From NCBI GenBank assembly GCA_023428035.1, contig JAEYZO010000532.1:1-10698 (forward strand): 10,698 nucleotides of DNA, read 5' to 3'. A program made the translations under genes and the position numbers. The notes under the pieces were generated by a model. It saw nothing but the letters and a program-made list of their open reading frames with translations. It did no database searches and was not told the origin of the DNA. How positions within the stretch are numbered: the stretch's first letter is position 1; each line of letters starts with the position of its first letter. Positions 4,529 through 8,786 of this stretch are shown one piece after another. Origin of the DNA: Pseudomonadota bacterium (lineage in GTDB: Bacteria > Myxococcota_A > Polyangia > Polyangiales > Ga0077539).

Positions 4529-6154
4529 ATGCGCGCTCGCCGACCCGTCGCCCGCCTCGCCCTCGCGTCGGTCGCGCTCCTCGCGGGCTGCTACGGCGGC
4601 GACACCGTCTCCCTCGGCACCGCCACCTCCGAGATCCACCAGCACTGCGCCGCGCGCACCGAGGTGCGAGGCATCGACGTCTCGCAGTGGCAGGGCGCGA
4701 TCCAGTGGTCGCGCCTGCCCGGCGCGGGGGTGCGCTTCGCGATCATCCGCCTGTCGAACAACATGTCGCTCGACACGCGCTTCAACGAGAACTGGGCCGC
4801 AGCGCGCACCGCAGGCGTGCTCCGCGGCGCGTACCACTATTTCAACCCGACCACCTCGGCGACGGGGCAGGCCAACTTCTTCGTCGACCACCTGCTCTCG
4901 CGCGGCTTCGGCGACGGAGACCTCCCGCCGATGCTCGACATCGAGTACGCCAACGTCGACACCAACGGCGACGGCGTGAACGACCGGCCGTCAGTCTCCG
5001 CGAGCGCCTACCAGGCCGCGATCCGCGCGTGGATCGACGTGATCCGAACGCGCCTCGGCCGCGAGCCCATCATCTACACCGGCGGCTACTACTGGGACTC
5101 CTGGGTGCAGTCCGCGGAGTGGGCCGCGAACCCGCTCTTCCACGCGGAGTACCCCAACTACTCCACCCGGCGGAGCTGGGGCGACCCGGTGCCCAACGGC
5201 GGCTGCGCGCGCTACGTGAGCAACCACTGGCCCCGCTACACCTTCTGGCAGTACGCGGGCGACAACACCATCGCCTCGTCGCTCGGCGGCGCGGGCACCT
5301 TCGGCTCCACCGCTGTCGACATGGACGTCTTCGACGGCACCCTCGAAGACCTGCGAGCGCTCGCCCGCGTCACGCCGCGACTCGACGCGCGCTTCGTGGG
5401 TCAGGGCTCCGACGCGGCGACCGAGACCGACGGGAGCGACGCGCAGTTCCACGTGTGTACGGGGCAGCGCGTCGCGTTCCATTTCGAGCTCGAGAACACG
5501 GGCTCGGCGGCGTGGCTCGACGCGGCCACCATGAGCGATCAGTGGGGCCGTTCGGTGCGCCTCGGGACCGTGCCCCACGACACGCCCGACCCGCTCAACG
5601 GTCTGGGCCGCGTGTCGCTCAACACCACGATGAACCGCGACGTGCGCCCCGACGGAGGCGCCTGCAACGACCGCGACGGCTGCCGCAGGGTGCGCTTCAA
5701 CCTCACGGGCACCGCGCCCTCGACGCCGGGTACGGTTCGCACCCGCTGGCAGCTCGTCGACGAGGCGCGCGCGTGGTTCGGGCCGGAGATGTGGTTGTCC
5801 TTCCACGTCGTCGACTGCCCCCGCGACGCGGGCGTGATCGACTCAGGCGCGGCGGTGGATGTCACGACGCCTCGCGACGTCGTGAGCGTCGACGCGGGCG
5901 CGGCGCGCGACGCTCGCGTGGTGGATGTGTCCCCGAGAGACGTCGCCGCGGCGAGTGACGTCACGATAGTCGACGCGGGCCCGCGCGACGCGAGGGTCGC
6001 CATCGACGTGGCGGCGAACGACGACGTGGAGCTCGCGCCGGACGTGACGCTCCACGGGGGCTGCGACGCGCGCCCGAGCGGGACGCGCGGCGGGGCGTGG
6101 GTGGTGGGTGTGCTGCTGGCGGCGGTGGGGGCGCGGCGACGGCGACGTCGGTAG
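4529..6154 (+). CDS. Secreted glycoside hydrolase family 25 lysozyme (muramidase) lipoprotein. Domain order: N-terminal lipoprotein signal, GH25 catalytic domain, beta-rich middle domain, Asp-rich decapeptide repeats, C-terminal MYXO-CTERM sorting tail.
   Basis: First ATG at 4529 gives MRARRPVARLALASVALLAGC. That is a positive n-region, a hydrophobic core and an L-A-G-C lipobox. The six-frame ORF starts upstream at TTG 4487. The GH25 signature GIDVSQWQGAIQW and DIEY are present. Residues 440-520 are degenerate D-V-x-x-P-R-D-x-x-V repeats. The C-terminus GGCDARPSGTRGGAWVVGVLLAAVGARRRRRR fits the MYXO-CTERM architecture: Cys, Gly-rich stretch, hydrophobic helix, poly-Arg. A possible TTGACA -35-like hexamer sits at 4487-4492. 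Confidence 0.8.
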   Translation: MRARRPVARLALASVALLAGCYGGDTVSLGTATSEIHQHCAARTEVRGIDVSQWQGAIQWSRLPGAGVRFAIIRLSNNMSLDTRFNENWAAARTAGVLRGAYHYFNPTTSATGQANFFVDHLLSRGFGDGDLPPMLDIEYANVDTNGDGVNDRPSVSASAYQAAIRAWIDVIRTRLGREPIIYTGGYYWDSWVQSAEWAANPLFHAEYPNYSTRRSWGDPVPNGGCARYVSNHWPRYTFWQYAGDNTIASSLGGAGTFGSTAVDMDVFDGTLEDLRALARVTPRLDARFVGQGSDAATETDGSDAQFHVCTGQRVAFHFELENTGSAAWLDAATMSDQWGRSVRLGTVPHDTPDPLNGLGRVSLNTTMNRDVRPDGGACNDRDGCRRVRFNLTGTAPSTPGTVRTRWQLVDEARAWFGPEMWLSFHVVDCPRDAGVIDSGAAVDVTTPRDVVSVDAGAARDARVVDVSPRDVAAASDVTIVDAGPRDARVAIDVAANDDVELAPDVTLHGGCDARPSGTRGGAWVVGVLLAAVGARRRRRR

Positions 6155-6157
6155 GCG
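6038..6157 (+). repeat. Left copy (DR1) of a 120-bp direct repeat. It is the MYXO-CTERM coding tail plus stop codon of the lysozyme gene.
   Basis: Aligned by eye to 8667-8786: 112 of 120 identical. Both copies end ...cgacgtcggtaggcg. Confidence 0.85.
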
Positions 6158-6229
6158 TGAGGGCGCGGACCGGCATTGGGCTGCCGAGGTTTCGCCCTCC
6201 GTCACGTCGCGGAGGTACGCTCCGCGCCG

Positions 6230-6964
6230 ATGTCGTTGGTGTTGCAGGACATTGATGCGCGAGTAAGCAAGGCCGTAGCGCACTACTGGGAGACGCTCGA
6301 GGCGCAAGAGCGACGCCAGAGGCGAGGTAGCGCCGACCGAGGGCGCAGGGCCGCTGTCACAGGCGGCAAGCAGATGGCAGGTTTCTGTGCGCTGGTGAAT
6401 CAGCTCTTGATCGAAAACGGGGTGCCCGAAGCGCACATATTCACGCAGCGGTACCTTGAACTCCCGGGATACTTCAGGCCCACGAAATCCTGGGACATGC
6501 TGGTGATTCACGATGGGCAGCTCATCGCGGCGTTGGAGTTCAAGTCGCAGCGAGGTCCCTCGTTTGGCAACAACTTCAACAACCGGACAGAAGAGGCCAT
6601 CGGCACGGCCGTAGACCTCTGGACGGCATACCGAGAAGAAGCATTTGGGAGGGGACACCCGCGGCCCTGGCTCGGGTGGGTCATGCTCGTGGAAGATTGC
6701 CCGCAGTCCTCTCGCCCGGTGCAGGTCGAGCGACCGCATTTCGACCCCTTCCCCGAGTTCGAGAACGCCTCGTACGCGCGCCGCTATGAGATCCTCCTGC
6801 GAAAGCTCAAGCTCGAGAAGCTCTACGACGGCGCTGCGTTCCTGCTGTCTACAGCGACGCAGGGGCCTCATGGTACCTACGTCGAGCCCGCGATCGACCT
6901 GAGCATGCGACGGCTGCTCGCCGGCCTCGCCGGTCACGCCGTCGCCGCCGCGGCGGGTGCGTGA
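6230..6964 (+). CDS. Putative Type II restriction endonuclease, PD-(D/E)xK fold, about 244 aa. Exact family unassigned; it could belong to an XhoI/PaeR7I-like or other small Type IIP family.
   Basis: ATG at 6230 with GGAGG 14 nt upstream. The ORF track extends to TTG 6176, but the low-GC block starts near 6225. Catalytic-looking motif LVIHDGQLIAALEFKSQ, that is, hD...ExK. Low GC, with A/T-ending codons atypical of the host. A GTGA overlap couples it translationally to the methyltransferase start. Confidence 0.55.
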   Translation: MSLVLQDIDARVSKAVAHYWETLEAQERRQRRGSADRGRRAAVTGGKQMAGFCALVNQLLIENGVPEAHIFTQRYLELPGYFRPTKSWDMLVIHDGQLIAALEFKSQRGPSFGNNFNNRTEEAIGTAVDLWTAYREEAFGRGHPRPWLGWVMLVEDCPQSSRPVQVERPHFDPFPEFENASYARRYEILLRKLKLEKLYDGAAFLLSTATQGPHGTYVEPAIDLSMRRLLAGLAGHAVAAAAGA

Positions 6965-8658: not shown

Positions 8659-8663
8659 CGCTG

Positions 8664-8783
8664 ATGCCAGACGTATCGGTCCACGGGGGCTGCGACGCGC
8701 GCCCGAGGGGGACGCGCGGCGGGGCGTGGGTGGTGGGTTTGCTGCGGGCGGCGGGGGGGGCGCGGCGACGGCGACGTCGGTAG
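8664..8783 (+). pseudogene. Orphan 39-codon MYXO-CTERM tail remnant (MPDVSVHGGCDARPRGTRGGAWVVGLLRAAGGARRRRRR*), the right-hand duplicate of the lysozyme 3' end
   Basis: In frame from a fortuitous ATG at 8664 to TAG 8781-8783. It is 93% identical in nucleotides to 6038-6157. An Arg substitution weakens the hydrophobic helix (LLAAVG to LRAAGG). No upstream protein body. Confidence 0.5.
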
Positions 8784-8786
8784 GCG
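8667..8786 (+). repeat. Right copy (DR2) of the 120-bp direct repeat
   Basis: See DR1. The 8 mismatches are clustered at the 5' end and in the Gly-rich/hydrophobic region. Confidence 0.85.

What the first reader, a model, noticed from the sequence alone, without database searches (positions are those of the whole stretch)
6038..8786. Type II R-M cassette inserted into a MYXO-CTERM sorting-signal tail, flanked by 120-bp direct repeats
A foreign restriction endonuclease plus N6A-methyltransferase pair sits between two 93%-identical 120-bp copies of the lysozyme gene's MYXO-CTERM coding tail. The left copy is in frame and ends the lysozyme. The right copy is an orphan, intact 39-codon tail. There are no integrase, transposase or inverted-repeat ends. 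This matches the insertion-with-long-target-duplication mode described for R-M gene mobility by comparing related genomes. Alternatively, the cassette may hop between genes by homologous recombination between the dozens of near-identical MYXO-CTERM tails a myxobacterial genome carries. In that case the sorting-signal tails act as landing pads for selfish R-M units. Either way it shows R-M mobility in action, and the site has not, to my knowledge, been described.
Basis: partly seen in the sequence, partly recalled or inferred. Interest (0 to 1): 0.8.

Follow-up and report, generated by a model that had tools for sequence, protein, structure and literature searches.

The report
Restriction-modification genes inserted with target duplication
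A foreign two-gene restriction-modification unit has been inserted just behind a lysozyme gene of an uncultured myxobacterium, copying the last 121 bases of that gene in the process; relatives still show the unoccupied site, so this is a clean new example of an already described way in which such genes move.

Summary
Window 6037-6157 and 8666-8786 are direct repeats of 121 nt. They match at 113/121 in the window and at 115/121 in two other assemblies of the same population. They flank a 2,508-bp insert that holds only a PaeR7I/XhoI-family restriction endonuclease gene (6230-6964) and a gamma-class N6-adenine methyltransferase gene (6961-8658). The left copy is the in-frame end of a GH25 lysozyme. 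The right copy is an orphan 39-codon ORF that abuts the stop codon of a convergent 365-aa gene ("p365").

In both, the lysozyme tail lies 13 nt from the p365 stop, and the single L026 tail aligns with both window copies. A more distant relative (L022) has the same adjacency. The R and M genes have lower GC3 (0.78 and 0.85) than the host genes (0.90-0.99). There is no integrase, transposase, tRNA gene or terminal inverted repeat.

All criteria of "insertion with long target duplication" (Furuta et al. 2010) that could be tested are met. The "sorting-tail landing pad" idea finds no support. The closest R-M relatives sit in unrelated contexts without tails or flanking repeats, and even orthologous tails are only about 75% identical. 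This is a new member of a known kind and of modest interest.

The parts
4529..6154 (+). GH25 lysozyme gene. It has an N-terminal lipobox-type signal (LLAGC), a GH25 domain, an Ig-like domain, an Asp/Val-rich linker and a Cys-TM-Arg-rich C-terminal sorting-type tail. It is intact. The ORF finder starts it at TTG 4487, but homologs and the public gene call start at MRARR.
   Evidence: Pfam PF01183 7e-33 and PF16158. Eight orthologs all carry the tail. P0001, 541 aa, is the called product.
6037..6157 (+). Left copy of the 121-nt direct repeat: the last 38 sense codons, the stop codon and 3 nt of the lysozyme gene. This is the functional tail.
   Evidence: TIGR03901 19.0 bits against a cut-off of 20.
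6158..6229 (+). 72-nt leader of the inserted unit. The roughly 40 nt nearest the start codon resemble the leader of the related R-M unit in L016. No sigma-70-like promoter or terminator was found.
6230..6964 (+). Type II restriction endonuclease gene of the XhoI/PaeR7I family, 244 aa and full length. GC3 is 0.78.
   Evidence: Pfam XhoI 2e-82, covering 2-190 of 191 model positions. PADLOC REase_II 4.5e-90. Homologs are 244 aa and some are named PaeR7I family by NCBI. GC3.
6961..8658 (+). Gamma-class N6-adenine DNA methyltransferase gene, 565 aa. It has motif I EPACGVGAF, motif IV NPPY and a TaqI_C-type recognition domain. Its start overlaps the R stop (GTGA). GC3 is 0.85.
   Evidence: Pfam Eco57I 1e-19, TaqI_C and N6_Mtase. 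PADLOC MTase_II 2e-192. Colinear to the last residue with three homologs. Motifs read from the translation.
8659..8665 (+). 7-nt trailer and right junction between the methyltransferase stop and the right repeat copy. The exact junction is ambiguous within 8659-8682.
   Evidence: Homology to other R-M units ends at the stop codon.
8666..8786 (+). Right copy of the 121-nt repeat: an orphan tail, ORF 8664-8783 of 39 codons. It sits at the native position relative to the convergent gene. In the window version two T->G changes put Arg and Gly into the hydrophobic helix.
   Evidence: TIGR03901 13.7 bits. It aligns contiguously with p365 and the L026 tail.
8787..9884 (-). Convergent 365-aa gene of unknown function (p365). 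It marks the right side of the target site and is conserved next to an acyltransferase gene in Polyangiales.

Best explanation
What it is. A compact, horizontally acquired PaeR7I/XhoI-type Type II restriction-modification unit sits in the 3-13-nt gap between two convergent genes of an uncultured Polyangiales bacterium. The unit is a leader of at most 72 nt, R, M, and a trailer of 7-24 nt. The two genes are a GH25 lysozyme with a Cys-TM-Arg sorting-type tail and a conserved 365-aa gene.

What is shown. The event duplicated the last roughly 104-121 nt of the target: the lysozyme tail, its stop codon and 3 nt. One copy still completes the lysozyme. The other is left as an orphan between the M gene and the 365-aa gene. 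This is the structure called 'insertion with long target duplication'.

What is inferred about how it got there. The two ends of an incoming linear DNA joined by illegitimate recombination at two positions about 0.1 kb apart, for example on sister duplexes or after a staggered break and fill-in. No transposase or integrase was involved. The 17-nt edge with 4 mismatches may be the imperfect-homology joint.

What is inferred from family knowledge. The unit methylates and cuts CTCGAG. It acts as a defence and addiction module. It can be read through from the co-oriented lysozyme gene as well as from its own leader. It can be excised or amplified by recombination between the flanking repeats.

After insertion. 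The orphan tail is decaying: the window variant has Leu->Arg and Val->Gly in the helix.
For: Structure:
- The repeat and its reading frames are confirmed.
- The insert holds only R and M, both full length and colinear with homologs.

Empty sites:
- In L026 (nt identity to the window 86-93%), GH25 and p365 are 13 nt apart. Window 4486-6114 aligns with L026 3855-2200, and window 8677-10698 aligns with L026 2266-215. L026 2200-2266 is therefore matched by both copies.
- L027 shows the same arrangement.
- Outgroup L022/L023 also has a convergent gene with the same kind of tail at the p365 stop.

Timing:
- The copies are 93-95% identical to each other but only 73-76% identical to the orthologous tails of L026 and L004. 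The duplication therefore post-dates the split from these relatives.

Foreign origin:
- GC3 is 0.78 for R and 0.85 for M, against 0.90-0.99 for six host genes; the GC dip is also visible.
- The nearest R homolog outside this population is 79% identical, and no other cluster member at 90% or more exists.
- The same R-then-M pair occurs in unrelated contexts.
- Homologs occur on 107 plasmids, 97 of them mobilizable, including paeR7IR/paeR7IM.

No other mobility machinery:
- No transposase or integrase domain in the window, no tRNA gene, no terminal inverted repeats.

The criteria and precedents are in PMC2853133.
Against: - The empty-site genomes are not conspecific (about 86-92% nt identity), and the tail is only about 75% identical to theirs. 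The exact pre-insertion target sequence is therefore inferred, not observed.
- Mismatches are concentrated in the 5' 17 nt of the repeat (Fisher p 0.0035-0.013). A simple duplication followed by uniform decay does not predict this.
- The six differences shared by all three assemblies of this population are two synonymous changes and four conservative replacements. This would also fit a right copy that once evolved as coding sequence elsewhere.
- The source genome is not available, so the genomic copy number of the repeat could not be measured.
- The joining mechanism and the activity of the enzymes are untested.
- CTCGAG is not depleted in the window: 11 observed against 9.1 expected.
Confidence: 0.82

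Rival explanations
1. Homologous ('Campbell-type') capture. A circular or tandem intermediate carrying the R-M unit plus one sorting-tail sequence recombined with the resident lysozyme tail. The two flanking copies would then have different origins, and sorting tails would act as landing pads.
For: A single crossover with a tail-bearing circle would give exactly tail - R-M - tail. The 5' edge of the right copy is more diverged than the core. The differences between copies are synonymous or conservative. The right copy keeps Arg at a position where L026 and L004 also have Arg, while the left copy has Ser.
Against: - Both copies share lineage-specific states that L026 and L004 lack. These include the same stop position and the same 3 nt after it.
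- The three closest R-M units (L016-L018) have no tail-like sequence and no long flanking repeats.
- The only tail-like nucleotide hits in 218 kb of related DNA are the orthologous lysozyme tails. Orthologous and other tails are 57-75% identical, too low for efficient homologous recombination.
- The Arg/Ser difference is explained equally well by one substitution in the left copy after duplication.
Confidence: 0.08
2. Loss rather than gain. The R-M unit with its flanking repeats is ancestral, and the relatives lost it by recombination between the repeats.
For: Direct repeats of 121 nt would allow precise excision and leave one tail, as seen in L026 and L027.
Against: - The R-M has deviant GC3.
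- The empty arrangement is also found in the outgroup L022, so several independent losses would be required.
- The two copies are far more similar to each other (93-95%) than to the tails of relatives (about 75%). An old duplication would not give this without continuous gene conversion.
Confidence: 0.04
3. The right-hand tail is the remnant of a second, decayed sorting-tail gene that once lay between the lysozyme and p365. The R-M unit overwrote most of that gene.
For: The orphan copy is an intact ORF with its own ATG.
Against: No relative has a second co-directional tail-bearing gene there. L026 and L027 have 13 nt between the two stops, and L004 and L028 have an oppositely oriented 397-aa gene. 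The identity covers exactly the lysozyme's own tail, stop codon and 3 nt.
Confidence: 0.03
4. Metagenome assembly artefact: a chimeric join through a shared repeat.
For: The window comes from a metagenome contig. Short-k Logan contigs break inside the repeat (L003 ends 30 nt into it).
Against: Two other assemblies, one with k=141 which is longer than the repeat, give the same order. The right copy has six private variants and is joined to unique sequence on both sides.
Confidence: 0.02

Closest known systems
R-M gene insertion with long target duplication (Nobusato et al. 2000, Helicobacter pylori; Furuta, Abe and Kobayashi 2010, NAR 38:2428, PMC2853133)
   Same: - R and M genes alone form the insert, with no transposase or integrase.
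- They are flanked by direct repeats longer than 30 bp that are single-copy at the empty site of a related genome.
- The insert composition deviates from the host.
- The reported repeats are 46-423 bp. Some overlap the 3' end of a gene: 2 and 15 bp in Haemophilus influenzae.
   Different: - The host is an uncultured Polyangiales (Myxococcota) bacterium. That phylum is not among the taxa named in the passages of that paper that were read.
- Almost the whole duplicated target (118 of 121 nt) is coding sequence, namely the C-terminal sorting-type tail of a lysozyme, so an orphan mini-ORF is created.
- The empty-site comparison is between species-level relatives (86-93% nt identity), not between strains.
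PaeR7I / XhoI Type IIP restriction-modification systems (CTCGAG)
   Same: The endonuclease matches Pfam XhoI over its full length. Homologs are named PaeR7I family. Both genes match plasmid-borne paeR7IR/paeR7IM at 67% nt identity. PaeR7I is the system used in the classical experiments on selfish behaviour and in the work on IS-linked movement (PMC3031569 abstract); the first point is from my own knowledge.
   Different: Here the unit is chromosomal, lies between convergent genes and has no IS. Specificity and activity are not shown. The closest relatives are 76-79% identical, from uncultured bacteria.
MYXO-CTERM sorting signal (TIGR03901; myxosortase MrtX substrates, PMC11980579)
   Same: The tail is tripartite and lies at the extreme C-terminus of a secreted, lipobox-bearing enzyme in a member of Myxococcota. 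It has a short motif with a conserved Cys, a hydrophobic helix and an Arg-rich end.
   Different: The left tail and all seven orthologous tails tested score 15-19 bits, below the curated cut-off of 20. The motif is (H/Y)G(S/T/G)C-x-A-R-P rather than the usual Gly/Cys-rich signature. Processing is untested.

Membership tests
R-M insertion with long target duplication (criteria of Furuta et al. 2010, PMC2853133) | Both an R gene and an M gene homolog lie inside the inserted sequence | tested here: met
   XhoI-family REase at 6230-6964 and N6A MTase at 6961-8658.
R-M insertion with long target duplication (criteria of Furuta et al. 2010, PMC2853133) | Insert shorter than 20 kb and without other mobile-element genes | tested here: met
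   The insert is 2,508 bp (6158-8665). No transposase or integrase domain in any of the 8 window genes, no tRNA gene, no terminal inverted repeats.
R-M insertion with long target duplication (criteria of Furuta et al. 2010, PMC2853133) | Flanking direct duplication longer than 30 bp | tested here: met
   121 nt at 113/121 in the window and 115/121 in L001/L002. The core is 104 nt with 2-4 mismatches.
R-M insertion with long target duplication (criteria of Furuta et al. 2010, PMC2853133) | A related genome lacks the insert, has flanks similar on both sides, and its single target sequence aligns with both repeat copies | tested here: met
   L026 and L027. Left copy to L026 is 90/119 and right copy to L026 is 89/119. 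The relatives are not conspecific.
R-M insertion with long target duplication (criteria of Furuta et al. 2010, PMC2853133) | The repeat is not a multi-copy genomic repeat or an attachment site | tested here: inconclusive
   In 218 kb of related loci, only the orthologous lysozyme tails of L004, L026 and L027 are hit (E of 0.005 or lower); everything else is a chance-level match of at most 27 nt. The source genome itself is not available.
PaeR7I/XhoI-type Type II R-M system | Endonuclease belongs to the XhoI/PaeR7I family over its full length | tested here: met
   PF04555 at 276 bits against a cut-off of 25, covering model positions 2-190 of 191. PADLOC PDLC03540 covers 1-243 of 247.
PaeR7I/XhoI-type Type II R-M system | Adjacent cognate N6-adenine methyltransferase with a SAM-binding motif and an NPPY catalytic motif | tested here: met
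   EPACGVGAF and GNPPYV are present in the translation. Pfam Eco57I, N6_Mtase and TaqI_C. The R-then-M pairing is conserved in L016-L018. Both genes match paeR7IR/paeR7IM plasmid genes.
PaeR7I/XhoI-type Type II R-M system | Cleaves and methylates CTCGAG | not testable with these tools
   The CTCGAG count in the window is not depleted (11 against 9.1 expected), which is uninformative for a recent arrival.
MYXO-CTERM sorting domain (TIGR03901) | Score at or above the curated cut-off of the family model | tested here: not met
   Left tail 19.0 bits and right tail 13.7 bits against a cut-off of 20. Seven orthologous tails score 15.1-19.0. TIGR03901 is nevertheless the best-matching family.
MYXO-CTERM sorting domain (TIGR03901) | Tripartite C-terminal architecture: Cys-containing motif, transmembrane helix, Arg-rich end (PMC11980579) | tested here: met
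   HGGC..., AWVVGVLLAAVGA, RRRRRR* in the left copy. The Cys and the Arg run are invariant in 8 orthologs. In the window's right copy the helix is broken by Arg and Gly.
MYXO-CTERM sorting domain (TIGR03901) | Cleavage and lipidation by myxosortase | not testable with these tools
Transposon, IS or integrase-borne island | Transposase or integrase gene, terminal inverted repeats, or a tRNA attachment site | tested here: not met

The most novel reading that the evidence does not exclude
The lysozyme-tail/p365 junction is a recurrent capture site. Three allelic states exist among close relatives: empty, a 397-aa orphan gene whose 3' end is fused into the tail's last codons, and the R-M unit with a tail duplication. 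The G-rich sorting-tail coding sequence itself might then promote staggered breaks or template switching that capture foreign genes duplicatively. In that case the flanking repeats would be a working stage of the proposed 'invade, amplify, release' life cycle of R-M units, rather than a by-product.
Probability: 0.1. Interest if true: 0.55.

Novelty: new member of a known kind. Interest (0 to 1): 0.27.

Why it matters
This is a cleanly resolved case of a transposase-free R-M insertion, with filled and empty sites and an outgroup. It comes from an uncultured, very GC-rich myxobacterial lineage recovered only from metagenomes. It extends a mode of gene mobility documented mainly in naturally competent pathogens.

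It also shows how such an insertion can be neutral for the host. The duplicated segment keeps the lysozyme's sorting tail complete, and the spare copy decays. The same junction holds a different foreign gene in sister lineages, which marks it as a tolerated insertion spot.

It does not reveal a new mechanism. It gives no support to the idea that sorting-signal tails serve as general landing pads.

Tried and rejected
- A genome-contig scan with p365 gave one close MAG, L004. It is not an empty site: it carries a 397-aa gene at the junction. More distant loci (L005-L011) have lost the lysozyme neighbourhood.
- A metagenome-contig scan with the lysozyme gave only distant paralogs and was not useful.
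- Contexts of lysozyme orthologs P0003, P0007 and P0008 show no synteny and no R-M.
- A search for flanking repeats or tails around the three closest R-M units found none.
- CTCGAG avoidance: none, so uninformative.
- The promoter and terminator scan around the junctions found nothing.
- Pfam, NCBIfam and PADLOC on the L004 397-aa and 521-aa genes gave no family.
- The phage collection has no homolog of the endonuclease.
The regex screen of 218 kb of relatives found only one non-orthologous tail, at 57% identity.
- dN/dS on the repeat copies was rejected. Six to eight differences are too few.
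Full report
**Observation.** The window carries one outstanding direct repeat: 6037-6157 and 8666-8786, 121 nt, 113/121 identical, 2,629 nt apart. The next longest repeat is 54 nt at 72%.

The left copy is the in-frame end of a 541/555-aa ORF (4487/4529-6154). That ORF has a GH25 lysozyme domain and an Ig-like domain and ends HGGCDARPSGTRGGAWVVGVLLAAVGARRRRRR*.

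The right copy is an orphan ORF, ATG 8664 to TAG 8783, of 39 codons. It starts 5 nt after the stop of the upstream gene. It ends 3 nt before the stop codon (CTA, 8787-8789) of a convergent 365-aa gene, called p365 here.

Identity ends exactly at 6157 and 8786. At the 5' side it fades: four of the eight mismatches lie in the first 17 nt (Fisher p = 0.013, or 0.0035 for the L001/L002 version).

**What lies between the copies.** There are only two genes.
- Window 6230-6964 encodes a 244-aa XhoI/PaeR7I-family endonuclease. It matches PF04555 at 2e-82 over the full model and PADLOC REase_II at 4.5e-90.
- Window 6961-8658 encodes a 565-aa methyltransferase with EPACGVGAF and NPPY motifs. It matches Pfam Eco57I, N6_Mtase and TaqI_C, and PADLOC MTase_II at 2e-192.

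The two genes overlap by GTGA. Both are full length and colinear with homologs, and the methyltransferase is conserved to its last residue.

Nucleotide homology to the three closest R-M units covers window positions 6191-8660 only. It includes about 40 nt of leader and stops at the M stop codon. The inserted DNA is therefore a minimal R-M unit of about 2.5 kb.

No integrase or transposase domain, tRNA gene or terminal inverted repeat is present.

**Source and reality of the structure.** The window is a metagenome contig. The same arrangement is present in ENA assemblies L001 (k=141) and L002.

L002 differs from the window at only two positions in 10,698 nt. Both are T->G changes in the right copy (8746, 8755). 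In L001 and L002 the repeat is therefore 115/121 identical, and the 104-nt core is 102/104.

The right copy has private variants and unique flanks, so the structure is not an assembly chimera. A short-k Logan contig (L003) breaks 30 nt into the repeat, as expected for a repeat in a de Bruijn graph.

**Comparison with relatives.** The closest genome in GTDB is L004, a Polyangiales MAG (p365 94% aa, lysozyme 84% aa). It lacks the R-M but carries a 397-aa gene of unknown family at the same junction. The 3' end of that gene overlaps the last codons of the lysozyme tail. L028 has the same state.

Members of the p365 protein cluster led to L026. This 7.9-kb contig is 86-93% identical to the window. 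In it p365 and the lysozyme converge with 13 nt between their stop codons and nothing else.

In blastn, window 4486-6114 matches L026 3855-2200 and window 8677-10698 matches L026 2266-215. One L026 tail is thus matched by both window copies, which is the signature of a target duplication.

L027 is a second empty site. In the more distant L022/L023 (p365 82% aa), a convergent gene ending LYGSCTIRP...RRHSAKKRY* also abuts p365. The empty arrangement is therefore ancestral.

Lysozyme orthologs further away sit in other neighbourhoods and never next to an R-M. All of them keep the Cys-TM-Arg tail.

**Direction and age of the event.**
- The two copies are 93-95% identical to each other. They are only 73-76% identical to the orthologous tails of L026 and L004.
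- The R and M genes have GC3 of 0.78 and 0.85, against 0.90-0.99 for six host genes.
- The nearest endonuclease outside this population is 79% identical.

All of this points to a gain in the window lineage after its split from L026 and L004, not to losses elsewhere.

**Mechanism.**
- Shown: a minimal foreign R-M unit lies at a convergent-gene junction with a 104-121-nt duplication of the target. The lysozyme and p365 are intact.
- Inferred: the unit was integrated by illegitimate joining at two staggered positions. This is the 'insertion with long target duplication' of Kobayashi's group. Their criteria are R and M in the insert, an insert under 20 kb, a duplication over 30 bp, and repeats that align with a single sequence in the other genome (PMC2853133). 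All of these are met here.
- That paper lists repeats of 46-423 bp in many phyla and suggests that double-strand breakage is involved. It also suggests that the repeats allow amplification. None of this can be tested here.
- The mismatch-rich 17-nt edge may be the imperfect-homology joint.
- No terminator or promoter consensus separates the lysozyme from R, so read-through transcription is plausible.
- From family knowledge, the unit should protect and cut CTCGAG and behave as a defence and addiction module. CTCGAG is not depleted, which is uninformative for a recent arrival.
- Relatives of both genes occur on 107 plasmids, mostly mobilizable, including paeR7IR/paeR7IM. None occurs in phages.

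**The alternative 'landing pad' idea.** A single crossover between a tail-bearing circle and the resident tail would give the same topology. The conservative nature of the differences between copies is compatible with it. The following evidence counts against it:
- Both copies share lineage-specific states, the same stop position and the same 3 nt beyond it.
- The closest R-M units have neither tails nor flanking repeats.
- In 218 kb of related DNA only orthologous lysozyme tails resemble the repeat.
- Tails are 57-75% identical at nucleotide level, even between orthologs.

What was measured does not support it.

**The MYXO-CTERM label.** The tail has the published tripartite architecture (PMC11980579), and TIGR03901 is its best hit. 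However, the left copy scores 19.0 bits, the right copy 13.7, and seven orthologs 15-19, all below the cut-off of 20. It is best described as a MYXO-CTERM-like sorting tail.

**Verdict.** The phenomenon is a known kind. What is new is the host lineage and the nearly fully coding target, which leaves an orphan tail mini-ORF. Interest is modest.

Noticed in passing
L004 11115-12308 (+) and L028 1603-1653; corresponds to the window junction 8784-8789: In two sister lineages the same lysozyme/p365 junction holds a different insert. It is a 397-aa gene with no Pfam, NCBIfam or PADLOC family. Its 3' end overlaps the lysozyme tail by 23 nt and rewrites the last residues of the tail (…RRRVRRASRP*). 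The junction therefore exists in three allelic states.
   Followed up: partly
window 8746 and 8755: These are the only two differences between the window and assembly L002 over 10,698 nt. Both are T->G changes inside the orphan tail copy, and they turn Leu and Val of the helix into Arg and Gly. They may be real decay of the unconstrained copy or G-run sequencing or assembly errors.
   Followed up: partly
L001, around window position 5012-5038: Assembly L001 has a 1-nt indel in the lysozyme gene that splits it into 170-aa and 371-aa calls. The window and L002 have the intact gene. This is an assembly error or a frameshifted variant in the population.
   Followed up: no
window 3414-3631: The 486-nt intergenic region between the VTT-domain gene and the DUF6151 gene holds three or more copies of a roughly 42-nt unit built around the palindrome CCCCCCTCGGGGGG (repeat families D2 and D11, inverted pair I23). 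The units look like REP- or MITE-like elements. The region is partly conserved in L026 (80% over 370 nt).
   Followed up: no
window 17-2473 (-): This 818-aa protein matches the major vault protein shoulder domain (PF11978, 4e-28) and a vault repeat (PF17795). It is a bacterial MVP-like protein in a Polyangiales lineage, and it is conserved in L026.
   Followed up: no
window 8787-9884 (-), repeats at 9077-9673: p365 has no Pfam family. It contains three or more internal repeats of 276 nt (92 aa). It is conserved across Myxococcota (over 300 homologs at E<1e-60). In the window, L004, L006-L008 and L022-L028 it lies directly downstream of a PlsC-type acyltransferase gene.
   Followed up: no
window 3820-4487; L004 13994-16265; L026 3893-6248: The upstream side of the lysozyme is also variable between the three close relatives. 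The window has the DUF6151 gene directly adjacent. L004 has an extra 521-aa gene of unknown family. L026 has a SAM-methyltransferase, a Uma2-family putative endonuclease and a 120-aa ORF instead.
   Followed up: partly
window 6190-6229; L016 7960-8000; L017 7960-8000: A short leader motif (CGAGTAGC.TCGC-like; in the window CGGAGGTACGCTCCGCG) lies 5-25 nt upstream of the endonuclease start. It is shared by R-M units that are only about 72% identical. It may be a conserved regulatory or ribosome-binding element of this R-M family.
   Followed up: no
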